Virus record (IMG/VR): IMGVR_UViG_3300031867_000033
Location: 344-64,343 of that record
Direction: 5' to 3' (one strand)
From: a virus
Lineage: Duplodnaviria > Heunggongvirae > Uroviricota > Caudoviricetes
Length of the DNA stretch: 64,000 nucleotides
Under the pieces are notes generated by a model. That model saw only the letters and a program-made list of their open reading frames with translations, searched no databases and had not been told where the DNA came from. Position 1 is the stretch's first letter. The number at the start of each line of letters is the position of its first letter. Below are positions 4,401-56,169 of this stretch, piece after piece. The position numbers were made by a program, and so were the translations under genes.

Positions 4401-4465
4401 AATTTTACCTCTTTTCTTTTTTTTTCTATAATAATTATAACATAAATTTTTTAAAAATACAAATT
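4401..4465 (-). promoter_or_regulatory. conserved ~50 bp promoter-like element (coding-strand form AAAAATATTTGTATTTTTTAAAAATTTTTGATATAATTATTATAGAAAA)
   Basis: One of >=28 near-identical copies placed 20-40 nt before an RBS+ATG on the minus strand. Confidence 0.55.
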
Positions 4466-4469
4466 TTTT

Positions 4470-4680
4470 ACAATATAATTGTGCCGCCCTACCATAATTT
4501 TCCTTTCTCAAATCTAGCCTCTGTCTTCCTTGAACGCCGGCGCATTGTAGGCTTAAAAATAAAAGAAAGGTTAAGACTTAGCTTAACCTTTAATATAAAA
4601 CCTTATTATACTTACAACTTCTTTCCTACAATGCGCCGGCGCAATAAACCTTATTTTGCTTCTTCTTTCTCAATAATTTT
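4470..4680. repeat. composite GC-rich palindromic element (3 cores + GGTTAAGAC..TTAACC hairpin), homolog of 2271-2400
   Basis: Shared order of motifs with 2271-2400: GCGCCGCCCTAYCATAATTT ... ACGCCGGCGCAT ... AAAGGTTARGAC hairpin. Confidence 0.55.
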
Positions 4681-5010
4681 GAAAAAATCCCCCATATCAA
4701 ACCACTTATCTTCAATTACATTTCCAATTATTTTAATTTGTCCACCCCAGCCTTCAGTTTTAACTCGGCAGTACTTCCCTTTTAAATCCTCCCATTTTTC
4801 AACTCCCACCGTATCCATAATTTTCATCATGGCAACTAATCCTTTACCAGTAGCATTAAATTCCTTTGCACCAAGATAACCATGCCCTATGCAATAGCCA
4901 CCAAATCCACACTCCCAGTCAGCACCTGATAACCAAATCGTAAAGGTTAGACAACCATGATCTGCCATTGAAATAGATACGTTTTTAATTCTTGCATTTT
5001 CAATTGTCAT
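4651..5010 (-). CDS. hypothetical protein
   Basis: ORF track; ATG abuts TAA of upstream gene. Confidence 0.5.
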   Translation of the reverse strand: MTIENARIKNVSISMADHGCLTFTIWLSGADWECGFGGYCIGHGYLGAKEFNATGKGLVAMMKIMDTVGVEKWEDLKGKYCRVKTEGWGGQIKIIGNVIEDKWFDMGDFFKIIEKEEAK

Positions 5011-5271
5011 TTAGTCTTCCTCCTCAACCCATTTAAGGACCTTAACCTCTTTAAGTTTAACTTCTTTAAGAACTTGAGGCTCCCATTCATCACCACACAT
5101 ATAGTTATTCCAAACGTTTCCCATGTAGTGCTTGTCTCTAAAGTGAAAAATTACTTCTTGTAAATGCCAACCATGACGACCTACTTCTATTATCTCACCT
5201 TCTTCGTAGTCTCCTATGTCCATAAGACAATTATATATATCAGAAGTAATTTCTTCCTTATTTTCAATCAT
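5011..5271 (-). CDS. hypothetical protein
   Basis: ORF track; TAA stop verified at 5011-5013. Confidence 0.5.
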   Translation of the reverse strand: MIENKEEITSDIYNCLMDIGDYEEGEIIEVGRHGWHLQEVIFHFRDKHYMGNVWNNYMCGDEWEPQVLKEVKLKEVKVLKWVEEED

Positions 5272-5280
5272 TTCATGAAT

Positions 5281-6520
5281 AATATGTGTTATTAACTAAT
5301 TAACATTACTTAATTAGCAATTAACCATGTTATGGTTTTTAAAGAGTGCCACAAACACTCTTTGCAGCTATATTTATAGCTGCATTTATATCTCTATCTA
5401 TTTCAAATCCACAAGAACATTTAAATATTCTATCTTTAAGAGTTAATTCAATTCTGTTTCCACAACAACTACAAGTCTAAGAAGTATAAGCAGGATTTAC
5501 TTCATACAAGTCTGTTCCAAACTTTTTACACTTCCATTTTAAAGTGTCAGTAAATCTACTTAATGGACTTATTTGAATTAATCTTCGTCTGTTTTTATTA
5601 GACATTTTAATTTTAGCATTAGTCAAATTTTCTATTGCAACATTATTATATCTACACAACTTTGTAGTTGTTTGTTTAATAAAATCTTTCTTTAAATTCT
5701 TAAATCTTTCATAAGCTAATTTTACTTTTTCATTTAGTTTATTATAGTTATTTGAGTTTTTAATCTTTTTATCTCTTAAAGATTTCAATTTATTTATTCT
5801 ATAAAATTCTCTTATAATACTTTTAGGATAGTTAATAAACTTTCCTTCAGAGCTTGTCATAAAATTCTTTATACCCCAATCAAGACCTATAGTAGTTGAA
5901 CTATTCTACTTAATAGGTTCAGGAGCATCATAGCTACCCGTAATATACCATTTTCCCAATTCATATTTGAATCTTGGCTTTTTAATTTCTGATATATTAA
6001 ACTTAGTTATATATTTCCTATCAACTACTATTTGCGATTTACCTTTAACACTAAAACTCTAAGCAGCGGGTAATTTTACTTTAAAATTATTAAATTTTAA
6101 CGTTTGTGAAGGTAAATAGAATGATTGTTTATTTGGATTATATTTATGAAATTTAGGCTTTCTTCCAATCTTTTTATAAACTCTTTGAACAGTATTAGCA
6201 TAATTCAAAAGAACTCCTTTAACAATTCTATTATGTAATGGAATTTCTGTTTCTCCGAAATCATTAAGTAAGTCTTTTTCTTTATAACCAATAATTCCAA
6301 AAGAACTAACCTTTGGTAATTTTTCCTAAAATTTTTCAACAAGAAAATTTCGCATTATATGAGAGTACTTACAATAAATAAATAAAATTTCTTCTTGTTC
6401 TTTAGTTGGATAAATTCTAAATTTACAGCCTTTAGTTAACATGATTTCACCTCCTATAAATATAAATAGTAAATTTGTTTTTATATTTATATAATATCAT
6501 AAGTTTGATTTAAAATCAAA
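5281..6520 (-). mobile_element. IS200/IS605-family TnpB-only element, copy 1 (no TnpA seen)
   Basis: Conserved left end ...TATAAATATAARTAGTAAATTT...ATATCATAA and right end AACCATGYTATGGT...TGTTATTAA shared with copies at 56170-57460 and 60121-61345. Confidence 0.65.
5339..6442 (-). CDS. tnpB: TnpB (OrfB, RuvC-like + Zn-finger) ~367 aa, continuous only if 4 in-frame TAG are read as Gln
   Basis: Translation matches copy 2 along full length (MLTKGCKFRIYPTKEQE...CSCCGN...DRDINAAINIAAKSVCGTL); three of the four TAGs are aligned to Q in copy 2 or 3 (below), and a fourth such pair is a TAG in copy 3 opposite Q in copy 1. Confidence 0.8.
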
Positions 6521-6573
6521 TCTTTGATATTGAAGGCTAAAATCTATAATGCGCCGGCGCATCATAAGTTTTT

Positions 6574-6750
6574 AATTAATTCCTTCTTCACCATCTTCTA
6601 CATCAATTATATCAATCTCACAGTCTCCATCGTTTTCATTGTAAAATTTTTCTGCCGCATTTATAGCTTCTTTATAAGTTTTCACTTCTGCAATTAAATA
6701 AGAACCTCTAGAATAATCAACAACTCTATACATCGAAACCTCCAAAAATC
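6574..6750 (-). CDS. small acidic protein (58 aa), paralog of 45761..45913
   Basis: RBS GGAGGTTTCG-ATG; MYRVVDY...DGDCEIDIIDVEDG resembles MYKVYDYYEDEF...DGECDVRIFNCEEVEG. Confidence 0.4.
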
Positions 6751-6851
6751 AATTGATTTAATTTCCTCTGTATTAGTGCACTAAAGGTTAATAAAATTAA
6801 CGCCGCAGTATTACTACCACGGCGCATTATTTTATTCGCCGCTATTCAAGT

Positions 6852-7404: not shown

Positions 7405-7465
7405 TATTTCTCATTTTCTATATATATTATACCAAAATTTTTTCATTTTGGCAAATATTTTTATG
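7405..7465 (-). promoter_or_regulatory. conserved promoter-like element copy
   Basis: TTTCTATATATATTATACCAAAATTTTTTCATTTTGGCAAATATTTTTAT on plus strand. Confidence 0.5.
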
Positions 7466-7511
7466 TTTAATTTTTCTTTAAATTAATTGCGCCACCGTCT
7501 CAATTTTATTT

Positions 7512-7970: not shown

Positions 7971-8083
7971 AATATTAGCCCTTTCAAAATAATTATAGTT
8001 TCATATTTAATTTCTCTCTCATTTTCTATATATATTATACCAAAATTTTTTCATTTTGGCAAATATTTTTATTTTAAATTTTC

Positions 8084-8925: not shown

Positions 8926-9291
8926 AACTTTACCTCTTTCTTTAAAATAAATTTCAGTTTATTTTGAAGAAGGTTCTTTCGCTGACAGTTAAACTCGCTA
9001 TTCATTCTGTTACTTCTTCAAAATATCCCTAACGGATTTCGCCGCCGCTTGATTTAGAACAACGCAGTAATGTTCGCGGGAATCTTTCTGAGTCAAGCTC
9101 GCTCCAACTCTCATCACTTTATTTTACATCTTTTTGATGATAAGATGTAGAAAATAAGATTGATTTTTAATTTCTTTCTCATTTTCTATATATATTATAC
9201 CAAAAATTTTTTCATTTTGGCAAATATTTTTATTTTATTGTTTTTCCTATAATGCGCCGCGGTATCATAAAAAGTTTGATGCGCCGGCGTA

Positions 9292-10574: not shown

Positions 10575-10787
10575 AGATATTACCTCTTTCTTTTTATTTA
10601 TTTCTTATTTTCTATATATATTATATCAAAAATTTTTAAAAATTGCAAATATTTTTTTGATTTTTCTTTCCTATAATGCGCCGCCCTACCATAATTTGGT
10701 AGGAATTATAAGTTTTAAGAGATAACAGAAGATAAGGGGAAGAAATAAAATAAAGCGCCGCAGGATGATACCGCGGCGCAAGGTAAA

Positions 10788-12366: not shown

Positions 12367-12623
12367 TATAATACCTCTTTCTTTATTTCTCATTTTCTAT
12401 ATATATTATATCAAAAATTTTTCAAAAATGCAAATATTTTTTTATTTTATAAGATACAATACTAAGATTACAATGCGCCGGCGAATTATAAGTAAATAAT
12501 TGATACTAATTTCTTTATTATAGACAATTTAATTAAAACTTCTACTTAATAATAAGGAAGAATTTTGATTTTCAAAAGGAAAATTAAAAACTAACCTAAT
12601 AACTTACAAGAGGTGAATTATGG

Positions 12624-14719: not shown

Positions 14720-14788
14720 TTAAACCTCACTTTTCTGCGGACTTCCGCGTTATATTTTTTTAAACGATTAAAGATTGGTTTTGGTTGA

Positions 14789-15532: not shown

Positions 15533-15616
15533 AATCTTACCTCTTTCTTTGATTTTTATTTATTTCTCATTTTCTATAAATATTATATCATAAATTTTTT
15601 AAAAAATCAAATATTT

Positions 15617-16450
15617 TTATGATTCTGAATCTTCAAAAGTAAGCCATTTGTTTATATAATTTCTATCTTCCTTGAACAGAGGAATTCGATCATCTACGAT
15701 CCAGCCCTTACCTCTATCCATTAAGCAACAGCTTCCTCTCTGGAATTTTAAAGGAATATTATGCCAAAGAATTCCTTTCTGCGTGGCAATCATTCTTTTA
15801 ATATCTTCACAATTTTTCCCTTCAAGCTGTCTCTGAGAAAAGAAAAGCTGACCTAATCCTTGAACTGAATTTCTTATCGCGTCTTGTTGTCTCCAAATAA
15901 GACAATTACACACTTCTTCTGGAGGAATATTAAATACGCGGGAATCAAATGTTGCTCCTTTTATTGAAGCTTTTGAATAGGCTTCAACTAAAGTTGCTCT
16001 CCTTTTTTCCTCTTCTGAAAAAGTTCGATTCGTTCCGCCCTCATCCCAATCTGGAAAACTTTCTCTTCCATATGAATATATATTAGCGGTAAATTTTTGG
16101 TTAAAGGCACATGTTGCAAGACTCGCTGATACGCTCGCTATTTTTTGAATGTTATTATTAAACCATGCCGTAGTATTAAGGGTTTTATAATCACAAAGAA
16201 CTAAAGTTATTTCATCAGATTGAGTATATCCAAAAACACAATTTTGAATATTTTCACAAAGATACTTCATTGTATCAGTCATAGTTTTGTTTAAAATTAA
16301 ATCATAGGGTTTGTCAAATTTCTTTGTAAAGGAATGGAAATGACAACCATCAACGCGGACAATAACTGGCGTCCTCCGAGTCAAATAATTTCGTGTTACA
16401 TTTTCATATGTTTTCATTCTATCTCCAAGAGAATCTCTTTTATTACTCAT
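15617..16450 (-). CDS. Thg1-like protein (tRNA-His guanylyltransferase family, 3'-5' nucleotidyltransferase)
   Basis: PVIVRVDGCHFHSFTKKFDKPYD...CVFGYTQSDEITLVL matches the Thg1/TLP signature (VRLDGRNFHKF...KPND...YGQSDE). Confidence 0.75.
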   Translation of the reverse strand: MSNKRDSLGDRMKTYENVTRNYLTRRTPVIVRVDGCHFHSFTKKFDKPYDLILNKTMTDTMKYLCENIQNCVFGYTQSDEITLVLCDYKTLNTTAWFNNNIQKIASVSASLATCAFNQKFTANIYSYGRESFPDWDEGGTNRTFSEEEKRRATLVEAYSKASIKGATFDSRVFNIPPEEVCNCLIWRQQDAIRNSVQGLGQLFFSQRQLEGKNCEDIKRMIATQKGILWHNIPLKFQRGSCCLMDRGKGWIVDDRIPLFKEDRNYINKWLTFEDSES

Positions 16451-18842: not shown

Positions 18843-18900
18843 TTCTTTATTTTCTATATATATTATACTAAAAATTCTTTAAAAATACAAATATTTTTTT
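18843..18900 (-). promoter_or_regulatory. conserved promoter-like element copy
   Basis: TTTCTATATATATTATACTAAAAATTCTTTAAAAATACAAATATTTTT. Confidence 0.5.
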
Positions 18901-18920
18901 GTTAAAAGAAATTTTTAGTT

Positions 18921-19044
18921 TACAATGCGCCGCGGTACCATAAATCTTTACTTCGCCAATTGTCCAAAAAATTGGACTCGCGGCGCATTACAAGCGAAAG
19001 ATAAAATTAAAGCGCCACGATTGGGCCGCAGCGCATTATAATTT
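18921..19044. repeat. cluster of GC-palindromic elements incl. nested GTCCAAAAAATTGGAC hairpin
   Basis: TACAATGCGCCGCGGTACCATAAA ... GGACTCGCGGCGCATTACAAG ... AAAGCGCCACGATTGGGCCGCAGCGCATTATAA. Confidence 0.55.
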
Positions 19045-22470: not shown

Positions 22471-22650
22471 AATTATCCCCTCCTAATTCTTTTATTTATT
22501 TCGTAAAAGTTATTATAGAAATATCTTTTTTTCTTTATTTCTATAATAATTATAGCAAAAATTCTTTAAAAATACAAATCTTTTTTAAAAATTTTAACCT
22601 ATATTACGCCGCGGCGCACTGTAGAACAAATACTAATAGTATAAAATATA

Positions 22651-23130: not shown

Positions 23131-23369
23131 AAATGGCTTCCCTCCTGTTTTATCAATACGTTTTTTAATCGTACCATTATGCTAATTTGCATACGTCATA
23201 TTAACAACTCCCATTTTTTATTTTATTTACTCCTCTTCAATAATGAATAATAATAAAGATAGGAGGAGGTGGGAGTAAACCTCCTTTTAAATAGAGTAGC
23301 TAATTCTATTTCCTATCATATATTATGTAATAATTATATCATAAGAATCTAAAAAAATCAATCATTTTT

Positions 23370-23606
23370 GACCTTTATTTTTGAACTATACGTATCAAAT
23401 TTAAGCTAATTTCAAATGTAGTATAGTTCAATAATGATACATAGTAATTCCAAATTTTAAATTAGGGCTGTATTAAAAATGAACCCGTTCAGAGGTCAGA
23501 AATAATACAGCCCTTATAACAAAATTTAAATAACAAATATATAATATATAATAAATAAATATTATAGATAAAATAGAATTGTGCCCTACGGGCATCCTTT
23601 TTTAAA
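23370..23606 (+). ncRNA. candidate plus-strand structured RNA ending in a strong intrinsic terminator
   Basis: Hairpins GAACTATAC/GTATAGTTC and GGGCTGTATTA/TAATACAGCCC, then TGCCCTACGGGCATCCTTTTTT at 23586-23606; no ORF. Confidence 0.25.
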
Positions 23607-24205: not shown

Positions 24206-24298
24206 AAATAAACCTCATTTCTTCTATTTTCATTTTCTATAATAATTATAATAAAATTTTTTTTAAAAATGCAAATATTTTTATGAATCTATAATACA

Positions 24299-26210: not shown

Positions 26211-26391
26211 TTGCTTCCTCCTCCATTATTTCAGCTATAAGATTATCATCAATATAATTCTCAAATATTGCATAATCTTCAACTTGTATAAAATCAAAGC
26301 TATCCATAAAATCTTTTCTCCTTTTAATTTTAATTTTCTTTCCGATTTTCTATAATAATTATATCAAAAATTTTTAAAAAAATCAAATATT

Positions 26392-26877
26392 TTATAGCTT
26401 ATATGCAAGGAATAACACGCATTCTTCTCTTTCTATTTGCTCTAATATTTGTTTTACTTCATTCCAGTCTCCTCCGCCGCGACAACAACCAATTTGAAAA
26501 GGAATAGCTATTGGTATCTGTGCATAGTTAGGGAGTAAATCAGATTCTCGAATTCTTCTTATCGCATTAATAAACCCATTCTTTAATGCTTCATAATTTG
26601 TATATTGGTGTCCATCATATCCATAGCCATATTGTCCAAAGATATTAATTACTTCACGAATATCATTTACTTGAACAATTAAAGAATGACCTAACATTTC
26701 TTTCCCCGGCAGTATGTCTTTATTTATTTCAATAAAATCTTGATACTTTTCAAAAACAATAGGATAAGTTTCTCGTATTTGCTTAGCAACTCCAGAATTC
26801 ATTTTACCCATACAATTTACTTGATGGGCAATATAAATACAAGAACTCTTTAACAAATCTCCATTTATTATCTCCAT
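26392..26877 (-). CDS. Macro domain protein (ADP-ribose binding / processing)
   Basis: IAHQVNCMGKMNSGVAKQI fits the macro-domain nucleotide-binding motif; start at MEIING. Confidence 0.6.
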   Translation of the reverse strand: MEIINGDLLKSSCIYIAHQVNCMGKMNSGVAKQIRETYPIVFEKYQDFIEINKDILPGKEMLGHSLIVQVNDIREVINIFGQYGYGYDGHQYTNYEALKNGFINAIRRIRESDLLPNYAQIPIAIPFQIGCCRGGGDWNEVKQILEQIEREECVLFLAYKL

Positions 26878-28788: not shown

Positions 28789-28870
28789 ATCTTAAAATAC
28801 CTCTTTTCTTATTTTCTATATATATATTATATCAAAAATTTTTAAAAAATACAAATATTTTTATGCTTTT

Positions 28871-31407: not shown

Positions 31408-31556
31408 ATAGAAATACCTCTTTTTCTTATTTTATATATATATTATAACAAAAATTTTTAAAAATTGCAAATATTTTTATGATTATGCATATATTATTAA
31501 AATTACAATACGCCGCCATACCATAGCTCTCTATGATACCGCGGCGCGTTGTAATT

Positions 31557-32402
31557 TTATTCAACCTTTCCTATATCAAACATGAAATTTCCATTTGATA
31601 CAACCTTAGGATATGTTCCATCCCAAGATTCTATTATCTTATACTGAATAACCTTTTCACTTAAAGAAGCTTCAATCTCCTTATTTGCCTGTGCTTGTGC
31701 ATCAGCAACGGCTAAAATTCTATTGGCTTCTGCTTCTGCTGCAATAGTTTTCTTTTCAGCCTCGGCTTTAGCCTTTACAATTTCTTGCTCCTGTTCTGTC
31801 TTTGTTCTGAGCAAATTCTGCTCTGCCGCGGTCTTCTGCTCGATTGCATCATTAAAGGTCGTAGAAAAGTCAAAATTTACAATATTAAATTTTTCAATAT
31901 AAACGCCATAACCGTTAAGCTTTCCATTGAGAAAGTCCTTAACACCTTCTCCAACTTCAGTACGACGAGTAATAAGCTCTTCTGCTGTATACTGACTTGA
32001 AATTGCCTTCATGCCCTCTTGTATTGCAGGAGCAATTAAAACATTTTCATAATCCATTCCAATGTTCTGGTAAACGCTTGCAGACGAAGTAGAATTTATT
32101 CTATAATTCACGGCTATTGTTGAACTTACAGCCTGCAAATCTCTTGATACAGCATCAGCATCAGACTCATATTTCTGTATCTTATTAGATACATCTACAA
32201 CATGAGTTATAAATGGAGTTTTTAAATGGAAACCCTCTGGAAAAGTATCATTTGATACTTTTCCAAGAACTACCTGAACTCCAGTATGGCCTGCTGGGAC
32301 TATTGTTGAACTAGCAATAAAAGTTGTAATTGCAAGACCACCGATAATTCCAGCAACAAATTTACCAGCAATATTATTCTTTTTCTTATTTTCTGCACTC
32401 AT
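31557..32402 (-). CDS. SPFH / band-7 (prohibitin-like) membrane protein
   Basis: N-terminal TM helix, SPFH core, Ala/Glu-rich coiled-coil tail. Confidence 0.7.
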   Translation of the reverse strand: MSAENKKKNNIAGKFVAGIIGGLAITTFIASSTIVPAGHTGVQVVLGKVSNDTFPEGFHLKTPFITHVVDVSNKIQKYESDADAVSRDLQAVSSTIAVNYRINSTSSASVYQNIGMDYENVLIAPAIQEGMKAISSQYTAEELITRRTEVGEGVKDFLNGKLNGYGVYIEKFNIVNFDFSTTFNDAIEQKTAAEQNLLRTKTEQEQEIVKAKAEAEKKTIAAEAEANRILAVADAQAQANKEIEASLSEKVIQYKIIESWDGTYPKVVSNGNFMFDIGKVE

Positions 32403-34733: not shown

Positions 34734-35041
34734 TTCATTTTCTATAAATATTATATCAAAAATTTTATAAAAATACAAATATTTTTATGATTTATAATCC
34801 TACAATGCGCCGCGGTACCATAAAATTTATGATACCGCGGCGCAACGTTAATTAAAATGTTCCTATTTAGCAAGAAAAATTTCCATAGCTTTTGCGCTTT
34901 CTTCTTTTAAAAACTCCGCAAAAGTTTCTTGATAAGACTCGAAGTCATCTCTCTGTTTACTAATCTCCCTTTCTACTTCTTGTGTAGCAGCAAGATTAAG
35001 TATATATTCAATCGTATCCTCCAAAAATTAACTTACCTCCT

Positions 35042-36477: not shown

Positions 36478-36545
36478 TTGTATTCCTCCTCATTTCTTTC
36501 TAAAATAATTATAACAAAAATTTTAAAATTTTGCAAATCTTTTAT

Positions 36546-36577
36546 AATAAAAATAGCCCAAGAGTTAATCTTGGGCT
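36546..36577 (-). terminator. intrinsic terminator AGCCCAAGA-UUAAC-UCUUGGGCU + U-tract
   Basis: After stop of 36609..36932. Confidence 0.6.
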
Positions 36578-37281: not shown

Positions 37282-37580
37282 TATACATTCTCCTTTCTAA
37301 CCTTATCCCAAACTGAATGAAGTTGTTCAATAGTACAGTTTAATTCAATTACTTTATCCTCATCTTTAAAAAGAATTGAGACATCACTTGGATTAATTTC
37401 ACTCCGACGATAATTCCAACCGCTCTTCCGAATTAAGTTAAACAAACCATCACTAACATTATGAAGAAGATAGTAACGATTTTTACCAGCTACCCGAATG
37501 ATCTGGTCTATAATATAAAATTTGTTCTCGTCAATTATTGACGGCTTAATAAATCTCTTAAAAAATTCCATTTTCCTCAC
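37281..37580 (-). CDS. hypothetical protein
   Basis: ORF track. Confidence 0.45.
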   Translation of the reverse strand: MRKMEFFKRFIKPSIIDENKFYIIDQIIRVAGKNRYYLLHNVSDGLFNLIRKSGWNYRRSEINPSDVSILFKDEDKVIELNCTIEQLHSVWDKVRKENV

Positions 37581-37696
37581 CTCTATATATATATTATATC
37601 AAAAATTTTTAAAAAATACAAATCTTTTTTTATATTTCTAAGCCTATAATACGCCGCGGTACCATAAAATCTACGATACCGCGGCGCATTATAGGC

Positions 37697-38023
37697 TTAA
37701 GTTTCAATTTTAGTTATATCACTTATTTCTTTATCAGAATTAATCTCATTAAACACATAGACTTCTCTTCCATCTTTTCTTATATAAAGTGTTCCAAGAG
37801 AAAAAATCTCAGGTTCTCCATTGCAAAACTCAATCTTACGTTCTACTTTATTATTATAGTCTTCTCTTAGACTTCTTTCAAAGTCAGAACCACGGCACCA
37901 ATTTGTCTTAGAATCAACAATCTTTAACTTAGTTTCCCCATCGACTTCAACCTTTTCAACTTCGTTAATCTTAAAACGAAACTTAGCCTTTGTAAATCTT
38001 AAATTGACATTCTTATTAAACAT
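37697..38023 (-). CDS. hypothetical protein
   Basis: ORF track. Confidence 0.45.
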   Translation of the reverse strand: MFNKNVNLRFTKAKFRFKINEVEKVEVDGETKLKIVDSKTNWCRGSDFERSLREDYNNKVERKIEFCNGEPEIFSLGTLYIRKDGREVYVFNEINSDKEISDITKIET

Positions 38024-38460: not shown

Positions 38461-38662
38461 ATTTAATCTCTCCTTTTCATTTTCTATTATAATTATAATA
38501 TAAAATTTTAAAAATTACAAATATTTCTTACATTGCGCCGCGATAACAACTTATTATACTCACCTTATTAAAATTCTACATTAAGAAATTTTTATAGCGC
38601 GCCGGCACATCAAAGTTTAAATCTAAACAAAAATGCCGTAGCTATTGCCACGGCATTTAATC

Positions 38663-42444: not shown

Positions 42445-42564
42445 AAATTAACTACTGTAAAACAATAGTTAATTTTATAAGAAAGAGGTTTAAGGTAAAA
42501 TCTTTATTTATTTCTTATTTTCTATAATAATTATAGCATAAATTTCTTAAAAAATCAAATATTT

Positions 42565-42960
42565 TTATCTCTCTGGAAGCTCAATTGTTGGTTGCTCTGC
42601 TATTGCTCTTGAAGCGAACCAGTTAAACCAAGGGTTAGTATAATAATAATATTGAAGTTCTATCTCGGTATTATACTCACAGATAGCTTTGTAAGCCTCG
42701 ACACTTGGATACCAATGTTCTAGGTCTAACTCGGCTACAATTGCTTCTCTGCGTTGAGTATAAGTGATACGCCGCGCCTCTTCTTTAAAAGGCAATTTCA
42801 TAGCAAGAATTATAGCTATTTCACAAAGTAGACACACTACTGAAAAAGCAGATAAAATTGTCCCAAATATTTCAAAACCTTCAGCTTCAAGGTAAGAACT
42901 TATAAAAGTTATAATAAACCCAATTAAAATAAGTCCAATTGTTATTAGCGTAAGAATCAT
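42565..42960 (-). CDS. membrane protein (two N-terminal TM helices + soluble domain)
   Basis: ORF track. Confidence 0.5.
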   Translation of the reverse strand: MILTLITIGLILIGFIITFISSYLEAEGFEIFGTILSAFSVVCLLCEIAIILAMKLPFKEEARRITYTQRREAIVAELDLEHWYPSVEAYKAICEYNTEIELQYYYYTNPWFNWFASRAIAEQPTIELPER

Positions 42961-45127: not shown

Positions 45128-45236
45128 TCTTTCCACCTCTTTCTTATTTTCTATAATAATTATATCAAAAATTTTTTAAAAAATCAAATATTTTTTACGC
45201 TCTGTACCGCTGCATCAAACTACGGCATATTATAAG

Positions 45237-45913: not shown

Positions 45914-46077
45914 CTTTTTTTACCTCATTTCTTATTTTCTATAATAATTATATCAAAAATTTTTTAAAATTACAAATAGTTTTATATTTTAAAAACTATT
46001 AAAATTAACTTCTGCCGCGCTACCAAATGCTGGTAGAATTAGAAAATTATGGAAGCGCGGCGCATTGTAAACTTAAA

Positions 46078-49095: not shown

Positions 49096-49235
49096 TATAA
49101 ATTCCTCCTTAAATTAAAGGACACGACGAAGGTAATTACAATTTAAAAGATTGCTCCTAAAATATTGCTGATATCGTCGTATTACTTTTTATTTTCTATA
49201 AACATTATACTAAAATTTTAAGAAAAATCAAATAT

Positions 49236-49404
49236 TTATTTTCTTTGTCTAAATTTTTCAACTAATTTCATACCTTCATTAATTCCATATTGAATACCAT
49301 AAGGAATTTTTTCTTTATCTTCTATATTCTTTAAAATTTGTCCCATTGAAAGAAAAATTGCTAAAGCTAAAAGATAGTCACCATACATATTATTTTCATT
49401 CATA
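49236..49404 (-). CDS. small membrane protein (start at MNENNMYG after TATAGGAG)
   Basis: ORF track trimmed; N-terminal part of track ORF is read-through of a GC palindrome. Confidence 0.4.
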
Positions 49405-50904: not shown

Positions 50905-51579
50905 ATAACTAGATCGAAAACGTCAGAATCGGACTGCCCCTCCGCATCCCTGGTGCTAGCTAGTGGAATTGCACCACTTAATACTTTTAGCTAACAAATG
51001 CGGCGTGCTACCACTACACCACGTTCTCGTTAATTTTAGTCGGCGATACCAGACTTGAACTGGTACGAGTTTTACCTCGAGGGATTTTGGTCTTGATGGT
51101 TGGTGCTGCCCCAACAATTAACTCGACACTGTTCGACACCAAGTAAGTCCCTTGTGTCTGCCTATTCCACCAATCGCCGAAGTTACTAGACAGTTAAATT
51201 TAAAGGACTTGAACCTTCTCTAAAAATTATACGAAAAATTTTTATTTATCCAATTAAATTTTGCTGTAACTGTCTAAATGGTTTTACATTAAGCCGCGGC
51301 TATATGGGAACCGCTAAACCATATATCTTAATGTAAAGTCACCTATATCCGTAATGCTCGGATTTCTCCGCCTTGAGAGAGCGGTGTTCTACTTTTAAAC
51401 TAATAGGCGAAAGACTAGGCAGTTAACTTTGAAGGGCTTGAACCTTCTATAAAAATTATACAAAAATTTTTAATTAACCATTTTAAATTTGCTGTAACTG
51501 TCTAAATCACCCCAACCGGTTATGCTCCGATGTCTTGAGGTTGAAATCCTCATATTCTACTATTAAACTATGGGGCGAA

Positions 51580-53496: not shown

Positions 53497-53955
53497 TTTA
53501 ATCTCCTTTTTAATTTTCTATAAATATTATATCAGAATTTTAAGAATTTTTCAAATATTTAAATCCAATTTTAAGTAGTAAGTAGTTTCAACCTTACGCA
53601 TCCTCTATGGATTTCACAAACTTGATAATGGAGTTGGACCTCCAAGTGTTCCATGAACGAGGCTCCTATTGTCTTAGTGCCTTTTAATTCTTGGCTATAC
53701 TTAAATTAGATTTAAAGTCCGCCTTCCGGGCGACGATCCCGGCACCCCCAGATTAATGGTGTTGAGTAGTGGAATCGAACCACTTATTATCCTTTACCCA
53801 ACAAGTCTGGTGCTCTAGCCAATCATGAGCTAAAGGCGGAAAATTACAAGACAGCTTTTAAAATTTTAATGCCAAAAATTTTAAATAAATTGCTGAACTG
53901 TCTTTAAGTTTCTATAAATATTATAACAAAATTTTATAGAATTTTCAAATATTTA

Positions 53956-54027
53956 TACGCTGTGAAAGAATCGAACTTTCATCAGATGCTTATCAGACAT
54001 CTATTCTAACCATTGAAATAACAGCGT
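53956..54027 (-). tRNA. tRNA-Ile (anticodon GAU)
   Basis: Manual fold: acceptor ACGCTGT/ACAGCGT, anticodon arm GATGT-CUGAUAA-GCATC, T-arm GAAAG-UUCGAUU-CUUUC. Confidence 0.55.
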
Positions 54028-54323
54028 ATTGGGTATAGCTTCGAGGCTATACCATTGTACAATTGTATGACCTCTATATTTATAGTCCAGTTGCCATACG
54101 GTGGACTGGAGCTTCCACATTTGGGCTTGAACCAAAACTGGCAGAGTCTGGTAGCTGATATTGGATTTGCACCAATCAAAGTTCGTATATTATCAACTAA
54201 AGTCTGCTGTGCTAACCTTATTACACCATGTGGAAATATAATAGAGAATCTAATTAAAATGTATTTATTTCTCTCAAACTCTCTATAAATATTATAGCAA
54301 AAATTTTTAAAAATTTCAAATAT

Positions 54324-54575
54324 TTATTCCATTTTTAACGTATTATAATCAATTTCATAATAACAAACTGAACCAATTTGAGCTATTCCAAAGCATTTAT
54401 CATTTTCTCTTAAATGCTCCTCTTTATTTCTTATTGCTTCATGTATCAAAAAATCTTGATCTTCTAATGGCGCTTTTATTTTTATTTGTTCTATTAAAAA
54501 ATTTAAAGCATCTTCTACATTTATAAAACATTTACTTAATAAGTCATGCTCTGGTTCATTAAAATATACCCACAT
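54324..54575 (-). CDS. hypothetical protein
   Basis: ORF track. Confidence 0.45.
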   Translation of the reverse strand: MWVYFNEPEHDLLSKCFINVEDALNFLIEQIKIKAPLEDQDFLIHEAIRNKEEHLRENDKCFGIAQIGSVCYYEIDYNTLKME

Positions 54576-54656
54576 TATTTTCCTTTCCCTCTCTCAACTC
54601 TCTATAAATATTATAACAAAAATTTTAAGAATTTTCAAATATTTTATTTTTTATTC

Positions 54657-55448
54657 TCAGTCTAAATTCATCTCTGCTAAATCCAGAAGATAAATTAAAC
54701 CCTTGTCTAAATAACTTCTTGCTTTCTTTTTCAAATCTTCGTCTACACCATAATAAGCCTCAGCAATACTTCCAGCTATCGCAGCAATAGTATCACTGTC
54801 TCCACCTATTGAAATTGCATTTCTTATACAATCCTCAAAGTTTTTTGATTCAAGAAAACATTCAATTGCTTGTGGCACTGAACCTTGACAGCTTTCCTTA
54901 AAAGTATAACTTGGACGTATATCATCTAAAGTAAAATTTATAATATAATAAGTATTTGCGTAATATCTTAAATACTCTTTGTCTTTACCTTCTTTAGCAA
55001 GAAAAATTAAAGAGCTAATTGCTTCTGCTCCCTTTATTCCTTCTGGATGGTTATGAGTAACTTTTGCAGTTAATCTTGCATTTTCTACCGCTTCTGCTAT
55101 AGTTCTTGCATATAAGCCACATGGACTTACTCTCATAGCAGACCCGTTACCCCAAGAATTATATGGTTGAGGATTGTCGGATTTAATCCACTGATAAAAT
55201 CTCTAACCATATCCTGCTCCATTATACTGTCTGCCTAATCTTTGCATCCAATACTGCGCCGCGGTATTAAGTCTAGTTCCACTCATTTTATTTTGAACCA
55301 TTGCCGCAGCTATAGCTATAGTCATAACAGTATCATCTGTATAACTACATCCACTATCAAATAAATCAAAATCTTTTGATTTGATATTATTAAATTCAAA
55401 ACGAGAACCAACTATGTCTCCAATTATTGCACCGTAAATTGTTTTCAC
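54657..55448 (-). CDS. ADP-ribosylglycohydrolase (DraG/ARH-like), 263 aa, one in-frame TAG joins two track ORFs
   Basis: IYGAIIGDIVGSRFEF...DDTVMTIA at N-terminus, GNGSAMRVSPCG in joined region, GGDSDTIAAIAGSIAEAYYG near C-terminus; ORFs 55203..55448 and 54657..55136 same frame, separated by TAG at 55203-55205. Confidence 0.7.
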
Positions 55449-55510
55449 CTCAACTTTCTATAATTATTATACTATGAATTTTATAAAAATTCAAATATTC
55501 TACTTTAAAA

Positions 55511-55966
55511 TTACTCACAAGGCATATGTATAACTTCTACCTCTTTATTTCTTTGTTCCTGTGTCATTGATGAAGTTAATTTATCCAAGTTATAGATATC
55601 TCTATAGCCAGGGGAAAAAGACAGTTCACTACTTATACCCCAATCTATTATTATATCATAAGTATTACAATTTACCCAGAGATCATCTGCTAACTTCCCA
55701 TAAATTTTATATCCTTTACTATAAAGAGACGGTGCTATTTCATGTATAAAAATATAATAATCATTAGATTTGTCTTCTAAATAAATATTTGTATATTCAT
55801 TTCCTGCTATTGAAGCTGTTCTTATATTATCATATATATGCTGTTTTAACTTATTAGCTGCCATCCAATAATCATTTTCTTTTAAAAATCTAACGTATTT
55901 CCTGACTTCTTCGGCTGTAGGAAAATGACTTTCCCACCTAGGTATTTCAAAACAAAAATTTTCCAT
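55511..55966 (-). CDS. hypothetical protein
   Basis: ORF track. Confidence 0.5.
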   Translation of the reverse strand: MENFCFEIPRWESHFPTAEEVRKYVRFLKENDYWMAANKLKQHIYDNIRTASIAGNEYTNIYLEDKSNDYYIFIHEIAPSLYSKGYKIYGKLADDLWVNCNTYDIIIDWGISSELSFSPGYRDIYNLDKLTSSMTQEQRNKEVEVIHMPCE

Positions 55967-55980
55967 TTAAGTCCTCCTTA

Positions 55981-56109
55981 TTTTAAACTCTTAAAAAAAT
56001 CTTCCAAAAGAAAACGAAAGCATTCATTACAATAAAAGCCTTCTTCATCTTCTGTTAAAAATTCCTTACCACAACGATAACAAATCCTATTATATAATTG
56101 CTTCATTTT
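55981..56109 (-). CDS. small Zn-ribbon protein (42 aa; CYRCG...CNEC)
   Basis: Manual read; below track cutoff. Confidence 0.3.
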
Positions 56110-56169
56110 TAACCTTCTATAAATATTATATCAAAATTTAAGTTTAAACTCAAATATTTACAAAGAAAA

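What the first reader, a model, noticed from the sequence alone, without database searches (positions are those of the whole stretch)
4401..56160. One long conserved promoter-like element reused before at least 28 genes
The plus-strand motif is TTTCTATA(A/T)TA(A/T)TTATA(T/C)CAAAAATTTTTAAAAAATRCAAATATTTTT. Its coding-strand form is AAAAATATTTGYATTTTTTAAAAATTTTTGRTATAATWATTATAGAAAA. It sits 20-40 nt before the RBS of minus-strand genes.

Copies occur at ~4401, 7405, 8013, 9175, 10593, 12386, 15553, 18843, 22515, 24225, 26335, 28805, 31425, 34733, 36495, 37583, 38473, 42505, 45135, 45925, 49185, 53505, 53915, 54275, 54595, 55455 and 56113. A displaced copy at ~23300 lies ~170 nt upstream of the 22651..23130 gene, with a hairpin-rich leader in between.

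It contains TTTG...TATAAT-like hexamers. A subset carries the inverted repeat CCAAAATTTTTTCATTTTGG.

A ~50-bp promoter with this level of identity across a genome is unusual for host sigma-70. It suggests recognition by a phage-encoded sigma factor or RNA polymerase, or an additional activator site. Together with the hairpin elements it makes almost every gene its own transcription unit.
Basis: seen in the sequence. Interest (0 to 1): 0.65.

Follow-up and report, generated by a model that had tools for sequence, protein, structure and literature searches.

The report
Reused strong phage promoter cassette
A large uncultured gut or rumen phage reuses one near-identical, textbook-style bacterial promoter (often joined to a GC-rich hairpin) 28 times on one strand, a real but fairly ordinary way for big phages to drive early genes with the host's own RNA polymerase.

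Summary
There are 28 strong copies of a ~54-nt element, all on the minus strand and all intergenic. A 20-nt core gives 36 matches where 0.8 are expected by chance. Most copies end 18-50 nt before a start codon with a Shine-Dalgarno site; some precede tRNAs.

The anatomy is a canonical housekeeping-sigma promoter of the Firmicutes type: A-tract, -35 TTG, 17-bp A/T spacer, TG-extended TATAAT, then an invariant TATAGAAAAT box at the predicted start. It does not fit the Bacteroidota -33/-7 type.

No sigma or RNA polymerase domain was found in ~70 kb of the source contig. None was found in the complete distant relative phAss-1 either. That TAG-recoded phage, predicted to infect Clostridia, carries the same promoter design ~26 times.

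About half the window copies sit just downstream of a conserved GC-rich inverted repeat. One relative shows a module swap whose crossover lies in that hairpin/promoter unit.

Best reading: host-RNAP-read expression cassettes, analogous to the PeSL promoter/stem-loop cassettes of T4-like phages and to SPO1 early promoters. A class-specific accessory factor is not excluded. This is a new member of a known kind, of modest interest.

The parts
56112..56165 (-). promoter element copy (-10 at 56125-56130)
   Evidence: PWM 37.7 bits. TTGAGT-17-TGATATAAT. Precedes a 42-aa ORF (55978-56106), then 55511-55966.
55453..55506 (-). promoter element copy (-10 at 55466-55471, no TG)
   Evidence: PWM 47.1 bits. 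Lies upstream of the ADP-ribosylglycohydrolase region 54657-55325.
54597..54650 (-). promoter element copy
   Evidence: PWM 54.4 bits. TTGAAA-17-TGTTATAAT. 34 nt from the -10 hexamer to the ATG of 54324-54575.
54278..54331 (-). promoter element copy before non-coding stretch and tRNA-Ile
   Evidence: PWM 58.0 bits. No ORF within 400 nt. tRNA-Ile 53955-54028 lies downstream.
53907..53960 (-). promoter element copy before tRNA-like non-coding stretch
   Evidence: PWM 49.7 bits. Directly follows tRNA-Ile. No ORF downstream.
53513..53566 (-). promoter element copy
   Evidence: PWM 46.3 bits. 29 nt to the ATG of 53227-53496. Suppressor tRNA-CTA 53099-53175 lies further downstream.
49191..49244 (-). 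promoter element copy (16-bp spacer, no TG)
   Evidence: PWM 35.4 bits. A 108-nt structured leader follows, then the TROVE/DUF2828 gene 47578-49095.
45934..45987 (-). promoter element copy
Evidence: PWM 58.4 bits. Terminator 46087-46110 and GC hairpin arms lie upstream. Recombination junction with L011.
45146..45199 (-). promoter element copy
   Evidence: PWM 60.1 bits. 31 nt to the ATG of 44981-45127.
42517..42570 (-). promoter element copy before tRNA cluster
   Evidence: PWM 55.3 bits. tRNA-Thr 42372-42444, tRNA-Trp and tRNA-Ser lie downstream.
38479..38532 (-). promoter element copy (no TG)
   Evidence: PWM 43.1 bits. 31 nt to the start of 38035-38460. Right hairpin arm CGCGGCGCAATGTA lies 11 nt upstream.
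37580..37633 (-). promoter element copy
   Evidence: PWM 52.1 bits. 21 nt to the ATG of 37281-37571. Hairpin with 28-nt arms (89% complementary) at 37639-37699 lies immediately upstream.
36495..36548 (-). promoter element copy abutting a terminator
   Evidence: PWM 46.0 bits. Terminator-like hairpin 36554-36578 with a T-run runs into the A-tract.
34737..34790 (-). promoter element copy
   Evidence: PWM 62.5 bits. Precedes 34543-34719 and RNA ligase 33451-34530. GC hairpin 34806-34844 lies upstream.
31429..31482 (-). promoter element copy
   Evidence: PWM 58.7 bits. 34 nt to the ATG of 30622-31407. GC hairpin 31498-31559 lies upstream.
28813..28866 (-). promoter element copy
   Evidence: PWM 55.3 bits. 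37 nt to the ATG of 28483-28788. Terminator 28980-29003 and a right hairpin arm lie upstream.
26345..26398 (-). promoter element copy
   Evidence: PWM 59.0 bits. Exact core match.
24232..24285 (-). promoter element copy (no TG)
   Evidence: PWM 38.4 bits. 39 nt to the ATG of 23765-24205.
23320..23373 (-). degenerate ('displaced') copy
   Evidence: TTGATT-17-TGATATAAT, but the downstream box is TATTACATAAT. 5 mismatches to the core. About 120-nt leader with hairpin 23264-23285 before the HTH_36 ORF 22651-23214.
22536..22589 (-). promoter element copy
   Evidence: PWM 49.3 bits. The next ORF is the TAG-rich homing-endonuclease-like gene 21577-22470, then NAMPT.
18849..18902 (-). promoter element copy (no TG)
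   Evidence: PWM 59.3 bits. 33 nt to the ATG of 18598-18828. Split GC hairpin 18911-19002 lies upstream.
   Evidence: PWM 33.2 bits. TTGAAA-17-TGGTATAAT, 11 of 12 consensus positions. Precedes GIY-YIG gene 17518-18414.
15569..15622 (-). promoter element copy
   Evidence: PWM 60.3 bits. 49 nt to the ATG of 15278-15532.
12392..12445 (-). promoter element copy
   Evidence: PWM 62.6 bits. 38 nt to the ATG of 11893-12366.
10607..10660 (-). promoter element copy
   Evidence: PWM 63.9 bits. 45 nt to the ATG of 10125-10574. Terminator 10755-10779 plus a right hairpin arm lie upstream.
9181..9234 (-). promoter element copy with spacer inverted repeat CCAAAATGAAAAAATTTTTGG
   Evidence: PWM 43.4 bits. 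18-bp spacer. 269-nt leader.
8021..8074 (-). promoter element copy with spacer inverted repeat
   Evidence: PWM 53.6 bits. TTGCCA-17-TGGTATAAT.
7413..7466 (-). promoter element copy with spacer inverted repeat
   Evidence: PWM 55.5 bits. 169-nt leader before 6852-7256.
4421..4474 (-). promoter element copy
   Evidence: PWM 50.9 bits. 35 nt to the ATG of 4111-4398. Inverted repeat 4535-4641 and terminator 4566-4591 lie upstream.
37639..37699 (.). conserved GC-rich inverted repeat (TAAGCCTATAATGCGCCGCGGTA...TACCGCGGCGTATTATAGGCTTA)
   Evidence: 28-nt arms, 89% complementary, 5-nt loop. RNA fold of the upstream 140 nt gives -54 kcal/mol.
34806..34844 (.). conserved GC-rich inverted repeat
   Evidence: 19-nt arms, 95% complementary. 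Lies 16 nt upstream of element 34737-34790.
31498..31559 (.). conserved GC-rich inverted repeat
   Evidence: 29-nt arms, 83% complementary. Lies upstream of element 31429-31482.
18911..19002 (.). split GC-rich inverted repeat (arms 44 nt apart)
   Evidence: repeat I9. The right arm lies 33 nt upstream of element 18849-18902.
4535..4641 (.). split GC-rich inverted repeat CGCCGGCGCATTGTAGG / CCTACAATGCGCCGGCG
   Evidence: 17-nt arms, 100% complementary, 73 nt apart (repeat I15).
10755..10779 (-). intrinsic-terminator-like member of the GC hairpin family
   Evidence: GCGCCGCGGTATCATCCTGCGGCGC followed by TTTATTTTAT. Similar sites at 13541-13564, 28980-29003, 6800-6825 and 19012-19034.
51213..51266 (-). 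weak look-alike, probably not a promoter
   Evidence: PWM 25 bits. TG abuts TATAAT and there is no -35. Embedded in tRNA-like sequence. Its twin lies at 51442-51495.

Best explanation
The element is the core of a reusable expression cassette of a large, TAG-recoded phage with a probable Firmicutes/Clostridia host. The host's housekeeping-sigma (sigma-A) RNA polymerase most likely reads it.

The parts, read on the coding (minus) strand:
- An A-tract (AAAAATAT) where alpha-subunit UP contacts lie.
- A -35 TTG(N3).
- A 17-bp spacer made only of A/T, with a T-run next to the TG.
- An extended -10, TGnTATAAT.
- An all-A/T discriminator.
- An invariant TATAG|AAAAT box. It places the start at A(+1)G(+2).
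- A purine-only leader (AGAAAAUAAGAAA...) that runs into a strong Shine-Dalgarno site.

In about half the copies a conserved GC-rich inverted repeat or terminator lies 11-45 nt upstream. The full unit is then hairpin + promoter + leader + RBS.

The cassette fires many short co-directional transcripts, with a mean of ~2.5 ORFs each. The cargo is TAG-free ORFans, NAD-salvage and RNA-repair genes, tRNAs and the suppressor tRNA. These are most likely the early class. The repeated ~50-100 nt of identity also serves as a crossover point for module exchange.

Shown here: sequence anatomy, positions, strand bias, conservation across divergent phages, one recombination junction, and the absence of detectable sigma or RNAP domains.

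Inferred: use by host sigma-A holoenzyme, the start site, early timing, and what the hairpins do (termination, RNA processing or RNA stabilisation).
For: Family size and placement:
- 28 strong copies, all on the minus strand and all intergenic.
- The 20-nt core gives 36 matches against 0.82 expected.

Canonical geometry:
- A seed of TTGNNN-N13-15-TGNTATAAT alone finds 25 sites. 23 have a 17-bp spacer, and about 21 of the 25 carry the TATAGA-type box that was not part of the seed.
- 23 of 28 copies have TG at -15/-14 (listing).

Translation signals:
- The distance from the end of the -10 hexamer to the start codon is mostly 18-50 nt, with an SD site.
- 68 of 85 ORFs have an SD core, against 13% of random 17-mers. 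This argues for a Firmicutes-like host.
- Several copies drive tRNAs.

Conservation across phages:
- The same design recurs in 28 IMG/VR loci and 81 MAG-binned contigs from rumen or gut, at 30-44% GC. Some have up to 13 copies per 14.5 kb, always on one strand.
- The shared proteins of these phages are only 25-50% identical to the window's.
- The complete phage phAss-1 has ~26 copies of TTGACATAAAAAAATTTTTRTGNTATAAT-ATATATAGAAAATGAG. Its predicted host is Clostridia (PMC10607447).

No alternative polymerase found:
- No Sigma70 or RNAP Pfam domain among the called genes of ~70 kb of the contig. PHROGs and Pfam found none in 30 further ORFs.
- None in 81 phAss-1 minus-strand CDS, and none in its published annotation.

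Composite with the hairpin:
- The GC arm 9-mers occur 34 times against 0.2 in shuffles. Twelve to thirteen of the 28 copies have the right arm ...GCGGCGCATTGTA within 45 nt upstream.

Module exchange:
- In alignment A1, L011 follows window 46275-46085 up to the hairpin's left arm. From there it follows the ligase-module promoter of the same contig.
- A homing endonuclease is inserted at +3 of one promoter in L024 but not in its 95%-identical relatives L023 and L028.
Against: - There are no transcription data. Neither the start site nor the polymerase is demonstrated.
- The -35 hexamer in this genome is weak beyond TTG, at 3-5 of 6 matches to TTGACA.
- The strongest conservation lies partly outside known sigma contacts: the A/T-tract spacer and the TATAGAAAAT box.
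- phAss-1 carries a second sigma-A-like class, TTGACAA-[GC-rich variable spacer]-TGTGGTACAAT, without those features. Sigma-A alone therefore does not explain why they are invariant in this class.
- Only ~70 of 98 kb of the contig could be inspected, and the genome is probably larger than the contig.
- Divergent phage sigmas or RNAPs can escape Pfam.
- The evidence for module exchange is one clean junction plus small intergenic indels.
Confidence: 0.7

Rival explanations
1. The core is read by host sigma-A RNA polymerase, but the class-specific features are the binding site of a phage-encoded accessory factor. Those features are the A(n)T(n) palindromic spacer and the quasi-palindromic -10/+1 block CTATAAT-T-ATTATAG ending in TATAGAAAAT. 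The factor could be an activator, a shut-off repressor or an RNAP-binding protein. It would define a temporal class distinct from a plain sigma-A class.
For: - phAss-1 has two sigma-A-like promoter classes in one genome. The A7T5 spacer and TATAGAAAAT box are essentially invariant in ~26 class-B copies and absent from ~20 class-A copies.
- The box keeps a fixed offset from the -10 hexamer across phages whose proteins are only 25-40% identical.
- The -10/+1 block reads almost the same on both strands.
- Three window copies carry a 7-bp inverted repeat between -35 and -10.
- phAss-1 encodes an 85-aa protein with a borderline CarD/TRCF RNAP-interaction (Tudor) domain, scoring 22 bits against a cut-off of 23.
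Against: - No candidate factor was identified in the window, and the phAss-1 Tudor protein has no homolog there.
- The register of the A/T tracts differs by 2 nt between phAss-1 and the window. That fits a structural or melting role better than base-specific protein contacts.
- A/T-only melting regions, an A+1/G+2 start and purine-rich initial transcripts are all expected features of very strong promoters. This last point rests on general knowledge of RNAP core-recognition and promoter-escape studies, not on a test made here.
Confidence: 0.18
2. The element is the promoter of a phage-encoded sigma factor or phage RNA polymerase.
For: - Unusually high information content, ~55 bits in a self-trained matrix.
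- Uniformity across ~30 copies.
- 28 kb of the contig and the rest of the genome were not inspected.
- Most ORFs have no family assignment.
Against: - The motif is bipartite, with exactly the housekeeping-sigma geometry and consensus letters. From general knowledge, it is unlike T7-type, N4, phiKZ/AR9 or SPO1 gp28/gp34 promoters.
- No Sigma70 or RNAP domains in ~70 kb here, nor in the complete phAss-1 genome that uses the same motif.
- The genes served are TAG-free, early-type cargo. These must be expressed before phage products accumulate.
Confidence: 0.07
3. The element is primarily a dispersed DNA repeat, such as a recombination, mobile-element or protein-binding site. On this view its promoter-like look is incidental to AT-rich sequence.
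For: - Copies mark rearrangement junctions.
- They sit beside conserved GC inverted repeats.
- Homing endonuclease genes dock next to them.
Against: - Strict single-strand orientation matching the genes.
- Fixed short distance to SD and start codons.
- The exact positions conserved are TTG, TG and TATAAT at canonical spacing.
- Zero copies on the other strand or inside genes.
Confidence: 0.03

Closest known systems
PeSLs (promoter-early stem-loop cassettes) of T4-like myoviruses RB49/phi1, PST and nt-1 (PMC2839356, PMC4122927)
   Same: - A repeated ~50-100-nt intergenic cassette made of a strong sigma-70-like promoter with an AT-rich upstream region, a stem-loop, then the SD and start codon.
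- Concentrated in ORFan-rich plastic regions.
- Some stem-loops lie between -35 and -10.
- The cassettes coincide with insertion, deletion and replacement junctions.
   Different: - A different phage lineage: TAG-recoded, with a Firmicutes-type host. The distant relative phAss-1 is siphovirus-like.
- A different hairpin: GCGCCGCGGTA...TACCGCGGCGC, usually upstream and often without a U-run, versus GGGG...CCCC.
- An extended -10 and a conserved +1 box.
- No experimental promoter, terminator or mini-circle data exist here.
- The relationship is analogy, not homology.
SPO1 host-takeover module and other Herelleviridae early promoters, read by host sigma-A (PMC6873191, PMC13401047)
   Same: A Gram-positive phage with many small early genes in short operons. 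Each operon has a promoter and RBS typical of highly expressed genes, and host sigma-A transcribes them.
   Different: - SPO1 switches to its own sigma factors (gp28, gp33/34) for later classes. No phage sigma was found here.
- The SPO1 module is 12 kb in a terminal redundancy. Here the cassettes span more than 50 kb.
- The sequence-conserved GC hairpin and TATAGAAAAT box are not features I know from SPO1 (from memory).
T4 and T5 early promoters (general knowledge, not re-read here)
   Same: Dozens of sigma-70 promoters per genome, conserved well beyond the two hexamers. The extra conservation covers an upstream A-rich region, the spacer and the start region. These promoters outcompete host promoters.
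   Different: - The host is Gram-negative.
- T4 uses a GTTTAC-type -35 and ADP-ribosylation of the alpha subunit.
- Neither has an extended -10 as a rule.
phAss-1 / 'Caudoviricetes code 15 clade' (OQ749652.1; PMC10607447)
   Same: - TAG recoding with tRNA-Sup-CTA.
- A NrdDG + NAMPT + PRPP-synthetase + nicotinamidase set, large tRNA arrays and one-strand organisation.
- The same promoter design (class B, ~26 copies).
   Different: - Only 29-42% protein identity in the few shared genes.
- 44.5% GC.
- Its hairpins are ordinary terminators, not the conserved GC repeat.
- The paper does not mention promoters.

Membership tests
Housekeeping-sigma (sigma-70/sigma-A) bacterial promoter | -35 element TTGACA-like | tested here: met
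   TTG is present in all 28 copies. The full hexamer matches 3-5 of 6 in the window and is TTGACT/TTGATT/TTGACA in related phages.
Housekeeping-sigma (sigma-70/sigma-A) bacterial promoter | -10 element TATAAT at 17 +/- 1 bp from the -35 | tested here: met
   TATAAT is essentially invariant. 23 of 25 canonical matches have a 17-bp spacer, and the other two have 16 and 18 bp.
Housekeeping-sigma (sigma-70/sigma-A) bacterial promoter | Extended -10 TG (common in Firmicutes; the -16 region) | tested here: met
   TG at -15/-14 in 23 of 28 copies (listing). phAss-1 copies read TRTG.
Housekeeping-sigma (sigma-70/sigma-A) bacterial promoter | Placed upstream of and co-oriented with genes, outside coding sequence | tested here: met
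   28 of 28 copies are intergenic and on the gene strand, mostly 18-50 nt from start codons.
Housekeeping-sigma (sigma-70/sigma-A) bacterial promoter | Transcription starts ~7 nt downstream of the -10 and depends on host holoenzyme | not testable with these tools
   There are no transcriptome or biochemical data. The +1 at the A of TATAG is predicted from geometry only.
PeSL-type promoter/stem-loop cassette | Strong consensus early promoter plus adjacent conserved stem-loop | tested here: met
   Twelve to thirteen of the 28 copies have the conserved GC inverted-repeat arm within 45 nt upstream. Others abut ordinary terminators, for example 36554-36578.
PeSL-type promoter/stem-loop cassette | Enriched in plastic, ORFan-rich regions | tested here: met
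   Most ORFs in the span have no Pfam or PHROG hit. Copies are sparse in the NrdD/ligase block at 57-69 kb and around the ligase gene in relatives.
PeSL-type promoter/stem-loop cassette | Cassettes are crossover points for module insertion, deletion or replacement | tested here: inconclusive
   - One clean junction lies inside the hairpin/promoter unit (alignment A1).
- One homing-endonuclease insertion lies at +3 of a promoter.
- Other breakpoints are small intergenic indels that prove little.
PeSL-type promoter/stem-loop cassette | Mini-circle formation, and experimentally shown promoter and terminator activity | not testable with these tools
   Needs infected cells.
PeSL-type promoter/stem-loop cassette | Occurs in T4-like myoviruses (homologous family) | tested here: not met
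   The nearest complete relative is phAss-1, which is siphovirus-like and belongs to the code 15 clade. The resemblance is therefore functional analogy.
Bacteroidota -33/-7 promoter | TTTG at -33 and TAnnTTTG at -7, with weak or absent SD usage | tested here: not met
   - Only 2 of 47 TAnnTTTG sites lie within 100 nt upstream of starts.
- The full bipartite pattern occurs 3 times (minus strand) and once (plus strand).
- 80% of ORFs have an SD core.
Phage-specific RNA polymerase or sigma promoter | Phage encodes its own RNAP or sigma factor | tested here: inconclusive
   None was found in ~70 kb of the contig or in the complete phAss-1 genome. However, 28 kb of the contig went unseen, and divergent proteins may escape Pfam.
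Phage-specific RNA polymerase or sigma promoter | Motif differs from the host housekeeping consensus | tested here: not met
   The motif equals the housekeeping consensus at all canonical positions.

The most novel reading that the evidence does not exclude
The cassette may be more than a strong sigma-A promoter. It could be a clade-wide, class-specific regulatory module of TAG-recoded Clostridia phages.

On this reading an as yet unidentified phage factor reads the invariant A/T-tract spacer and the palindromic -10/+1 TATAGAAAAT block. Alternatively, the invariant 5' leader AGAAAAU(A/G)AGAAAGG is read at the RNA level. Either way the features would set timing alongside stop-codon recoding.

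The linked GC hairpin would make the unit a portable recombination and docking site. That site would shuffle ORFans and capture homing endonucleases across phages.
Probability: 0.18. Interest if true: 0.55.

Novelty: new member of a known kind. Interest (0 to 1): 0.35.

Why it matters
It gives a concrete, testable promoter model for a widespread but uncultured group of 120-190-kb gut and rumen phages that recode TAG. The only genome paper found for their described relative (phAss-1) does not mention promoters, sigma factors or RNA polymerases.

Uses of the motif:
- Marking transcription-unit starts and probable early regions in such contigs.
- Flagging phage contigs mis-binned into bacterial MAGs.
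- Supporting a Firmicutes/Clostridia host assignment.
- Supplying very strong, compact promoter + leader + RBS parts for Clostridia engineering.

The motif also extends the PeSL idea beyond T4-like phages of Gram-negative hosts. In that idea, conserved promoter/hairpin cassettes act as module boundaries.

The result does not by itself reveal a new transcription mechanism.

Tried and rejected
It is too strict, finding only 5 hits. I replaced it with a regex and a PWM.
- **Bacteroidota -33/-7 reading.** Rejected.
- **Close relatives among isolated phages.** No megablast hit for 25 kb of the window. NAMPT is at best 52% identical to an unannotated gut scaffold (MT835544) that lacks the motif.
- **Host promoter mimicry via genome contigs.** Hits were almost all 120-190-kb contigs binned into assorted MAGs, most likely phage contigs. 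They say little about host promoters.
- **Looking up window-edge proteins to walk along the contig.**
  - 63608-63862 and 38663-40759 were not on record.
  - I therefore reached only 6 kb beyond the window.
- **Sigma or RNAP among window ORFs.** Pfam and PHROGs on 30 ORFs, plus precomputed Pfam for all called genes, found none.
- **Recalled CarD sequence as a phmmer probe.** Uninformative. Pfam then placed the borderline Tudor/CarD hit on phAss-1 108739-108996, which has no homolog in the window.
- **Weak PWM hits at 51.2 and 51.4 kb.** Rejected as promoters, because TG abuts TATAAT, there is no -35, and they lie inside tRNA-like sequence. Folding them gave nothing significant.
- **Similarity of copies versus distance along the genome.** Only a weak trend (Spearman -0.15, permutation p 0.008).
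- **phAss-1 class-B promoters and upstream structure.** As a set they are not preceded by unusually stable structure (mean -13.3 versus -12.3 kcal/mol in controls).

Full report
**Setting**

The window is ~30% G+C with uniformly negative GC skew. Nearly all ORFs lie on the minus strand.

It is part of a 98,360-bp metagenome contig, ENA ERZ27256863 k141_3536858. The window reaches to within ~320 bp of one contig end, and 34 kb more lie beyond position 64000.

Evidence that this is a TAG-recoded phage:
- A CTA-anticodon suppressor tRNA lies at 53099-53175.
- Reading TAG as sense raises ORF coverage on that strand from 36 to 47 kb.
- In-frame TAGs are confined to homing-endonuclease-like, GIY-YIG, TnpB-like and HTH ORFs. 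The 'cargo' genes are TAG-free.

The cargo includes NAMPT, NadE, PRPP synthetase, nicotinamidase, an Rnl1-type RNA ligase, a kinase/phosphatase, a Thg1-like enzyme, a TROVE/DUF2828 protein, 13-14 tRNAs, a tmRNA and many ORFans.

SD cores precede 68 of 85 ORFs, against 13% of random 17-mers.

Yes.
- The 24-nt core finds 29 minus-strand sites and 1 plus-strand site at <=4 mismatches.
- A weight matrix finds 30 minus-strand and 0 plus-strand peaks. Of these, 28 are strong.
- A 20-nt core at <=2 mismatches gives 36 matches against 0.82 expected.

I add 18458-18511 and a copy just outside the window at ~68.8 kb.

The ~23.3-kb copy is degenerate. Two weak hits at 51.2 and 51.4 kb lie in tRNA-like sequence and are discounted.

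All 28 strong copies are intergenic. Most end 18-50 nt before an SD-preceded start codon. Six have leaders of 63-269 nt, and several precede tRNAs or other non-coding stretches.

There are 0-5 ORFs between successive copies, about 2.5 on average. 'Almost every gene its own unit' is therefore an overstatement.

**Anatomy**

On the coding strand the consensus is AAAAATATTTG-nat-TTTTnAAAAATTTTTG-n-TATAAT-atT-TATAGAAAAT, followed by aAGAAA...GGAG.

With TATAAT numbered -12 to -7, the other blocks fall as follows:
- TG at -15/-14, an extended -10.
- TTG at -35 to -33, after a 17-bp spacer.
- The A-tract at about -45 to -38, where UP-element contacts lie.
- The A of TATAG at +1, with G at +2.

A seed using only TTGNNN, the spacing and TGNTATAAT recovers 25 window sites. 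Of these, 23 have a 17-bp spacer, and about 21 carry the TATAGA-type box at the same offset although it was not part of the seed.

The block from -12 to +1 is entirely A/T and nearly palindromic (CTATAAT-T-ATTATAG). The leader is purine-only up to the SD.

The Bacteroidota -33/-7 model fails.

**Conservation elsewhere**

An exact-pattern scan of IMG/VR returned 28 loci from rumen- or gut-type samples.
- Three come from 154-170-kb contigs and carry 11-13 copies per ~14.5 kb, all on one strand.
- Their proteins are only 25-50% identical to the window's orthologues. The element is therefore under selection and is not merely recently duplicated.

A GTDB scan returned 81 loci. Most lie in 120-190-kb contigs binned into Ruminococcus, Oscillospiraceae, Clostridia, Bacilli and assorted other MAGs. 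Multi-copy clusters occur at 30-44% GC. These are probably mis-binned phage genomes.

The nearest complete, named relative is phage phAss-1 (OQ749652.1, 136 kb, human gut, 'Caudoviricetes code 15 clade').
- It has the same NrdDG / NAMPT / PRPP-synthetase / nicotinamidase / tRNA-Sup-CTA layout.
- It shares only 29-42% protein identity with the window.
- Its paper predicts a Clostridia (Eubacteriales) host. It does not mention promoters, sigma factors or RNA polymerases.

In phAss-1 I find two sigma-A-like promoter classes:
- **Class A:** ~20 sites at 127.7-135.4 kb, reading TTGACAA-[variable, GC-rich spacer, often a GGGG..CCCC hairpin around the -35]-TGTGGTACAAT.
- **Class B:** ~26 sites from 55.9 to 125.8 kb plus two in front of minus-strand genes in the late region. 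They read TTGACATAAAAAAATTTTTRTGNTATAAT-ATATATAGAAAATGAG. This is the window's design.

**Who reads it?**

No Sigma70-family or RNAP Pfam domain is recorded for any called gene in ~70 kb of the contig. My Pfam and PHROGs scans of 30 ORFs found none either.

In phAss-1, 81 minus-strand CDS gave DnaE-type polymerase, topoisomerase II, helicase, NAD and nucleotide enzymes, a MarR/IclR-type HTH protein, and one 85-aa protein with a borderline CarD/TRCF Tudor domain. None gave a sigma or RNAP domain.

Three lines of evidence point the same way: the canonical geometry, the Firmicutes-style SD usage, and the TAG-free, early-type cargo. The phAss-1 paper, citing earlier work, notes that suppressed stops are found mainly in late genes. 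The parsimonious reader is therefore the host's housekeeping-sigma holoenzyme. This is an inference, not a demonstration.

**The hairpin partner**

Upstream of 12-13 of the 28 copies, 11-45 nt before the A-tract, lies the right arm of a sequence-conserved GC-rich inverted repeat. Its form is (T/A)CAATGCGCCGCGGTA ... TACCGCGGCGCATTGTA.
- Three are near-perfect long hairpins: 37639-37699 with 28-nt arms, 34806-34844 and 31498-31559.
- Others are split by 40-75 nt.
- Some left arms pair locally and are followed by a T-run. These are credible intrinsic terminators (10755-10779, 13541-13564, 28980-29003).
- The arm 9-mers occur 34 times against 0.2 in shuffles.
- Relatives show GGCGGCACAA directly upstream of their -35.

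The full unit is therefore hairpin/terminator + promoter + leader + SD.

Whether the U-less long stems terminate transcription, are RNase III-type processing sites or stabilise 3' ends is unknown. From memory, conserved intercistronic processing hairpins are known from SP82/SPO1-type early mRNAs.

**Module exchange**

In alignment A1, the relative L011 behaves as follows:
- It is ~90% identical to window 46275-46085, including the terminator at 46087-46110, up to the left arm of the GC repeat.
- From there on it is nearly identical to the promoter and gene that head the DNA-ligase module of the window's own contig (window-equivalent ~68.8 kb).
- It does not follow the window's 45934-45987 promoter and its genes.

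The crossover therefore lies inside the shared hairpin/promoter unit.

Among three ~95%-identical relatives, one (L024) has a GIY-YIG gene inserted 3 nt after the predicted start of a promoter. In the other two that promoter drives a different sequence.

In the window, homing-endonuclease genes likewise sit directly behind the copies at 18458-18511 and 22536-22589.

This is suggestive but thin evidence for cassette-mediated shuffling.

**Comparison with known systems**

The closest concept is the PeSL of T4-like phages. PeSLs are strong sigma-70-like early promoters with an AT-rich upstream region and a stem-loop. They are conserved over ~100 bp, concentrated in ORFan-rich plastic regions, and used as recombination points (PMC2839356, PMC4122927).

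The SPO1 host-takeover module is the Gram-positive parallel. It holds small early genes in short operons with promoters and RBSs of highly expressed genes, read by host sigma-A (PMC6873191; PMC13401047).

The present case is analogous, not homologous. It differs in phage clade, hairpin, extended -10 and the conserved +1 box.

**What remains unexplained**

It is unclear why the A/T-tract spacer and the TATAGAAAAT box are invariant within this class. phAss-1 also carries plain sigma-A-like promoters without them.

Possible causes:
- Promoter strength, melting, start-site choice or promoter escape.
- Homogenisation by recombination.
- A class-specific phage factor.

I give the accessory-factor version ~0.18 and a phage sigma or RNAP ~0.07.

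**Verdict**

Its mechanistic inference is not supported.

It is a new member of a known kind: conserved host-RNAP promoter/hairpin cassettes of large phages. The phage group is one whose only genome paper found here does not mention promoters. Interest is modest (0.35).

Noticed in passing
window 53099-53175 (-); TAG-containing ORFs e.g. 46384-47448, 52097-53038, 21577-22470, 40828-41724, 57565-58413: The phage recodes TAG. It has a CTA-anticodon suppressor tRNA, and reading TAG as sense adds ~11 kb of ORF. In this window in-frame TAGs occur only in homing-endonuclease-like, GIY-YIG, TnpB-like and HTH ORFs, never in the cargo genes.
   Followed up: partly
window 43060-43416 (-): A phage-encoded tmRNA. 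The Rfam RF00023 match scores 52.4 bits against a gathering score of 47 and covers the full model length.
   Followed up: no
window 5339-6442, 56253-57407, 60171-61268 (-): Three copies of a TnpB/Cas12f-like (OrfB_IS605 + Cas12f1-like TNB) gene. All contain in-frame TAGs. At least two are preceded by a weak, degenerate promoter-like site of their own.
   Followed up: partly
window 47578-49095 (-), 49095-49200, 49660-49719; repeats near 51.2, 51.43 and 53.85 kb: A TROVE/DUF2828 (Ro-like) gene has a structured 108-nt leader (z = -2.6). A sub-threshold YrlA (Y RNA-like) match lies nearby (E 0.0066). Several tRNA-like repeats share GACAGTTnCAGCAA. Together these may be a phage Ro/Y-RNA module.
   Followed up: partly
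window 17518-18414 and 21577-22470 (-); L024 ~14575-14741: Homing-endonuclease genes sit immediately downstream of promoter copies. In the window, one overlaps the NAMPT start by 8 nt. In relative L024 a GIY-YIG gene begins a few nt after the predicted +1, whereas its 95%-identical relatives have a different sequence there.
   Followed up: partly
window 6800-6825, 10755-10779, 13541-13564, 19012-19034, 28980-29003, 58954-58977; 37639-37699, 34806-34844, 31498-31559: A family of GC-rich hairpins (GCGCCGCGGTA...CCGCGGCGC) in a 30% GC genome. Some have T-runs and look like terminators. Others are long near-perfect stems without a U-run, possibly RNA processing or stability sites.
   Followed up: partly
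phAss-1 OQ749652.1 (L117-L119): 127.7-135.4 kb versus 55.9-125.8 kb: phAss-1 has two distinct sigma-A-like promoter classes. Class A has variable GC-rich spacers, a TACAAT -10 and often a GGGG..CCCC hairpin around the -35. Class B has an invariant A7T5 spacer and the TATAGAAAAT box. Class B also precedes the minus-strand lysis genes (3535 -> amidase 1779-2543).
   Followed up: partly
phAss-1 108739-108996 (L119:8739-8996, -): An 85-aa protein, the authors' 'transcription factor', has a borderline CarD/TRCF RNAP-interaction (Tudor) domain. It scores 22 bits against a cut-off of 23. It is a possible RNAP-binding accessory protein, and no homolog is detectable in the window.
   Followed up: partly
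window 58983-59969 (-): An MFS-transporter-like ORF (PF07690) with a poor RBS context lies between two TnpB-like copies. This is odd cargo for a phage and may be a captured fragment.
   Followed up: no
window 33451-34530, 35042-35929, 15617-16450; 19045-21584, 29013-30350 (-): The window carries an RNA-repair set (Rnl1-type ligase, AAA_33 kinase/phosphatase, Thg1-like) and a full NAD+ salvage set (NAMPT, NadE, PRPP synthetase, nicotinamidase). Together with the many tRNAs, this looks like a counter-defence or tRNA-repair and NAD-replenishment repertoire.
   Followed up: no
Genome-contig loci L032-L112: The promoter motif flags many 120-190-kb contigs that public MAGs assign to unrelated taxa, including Methanobrevibacter, Melainabacteria, Endomicrobiaceae, Ruminococcus and Bacilli. 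These are probably mis-binned phage genomes.
   Followed up: partly
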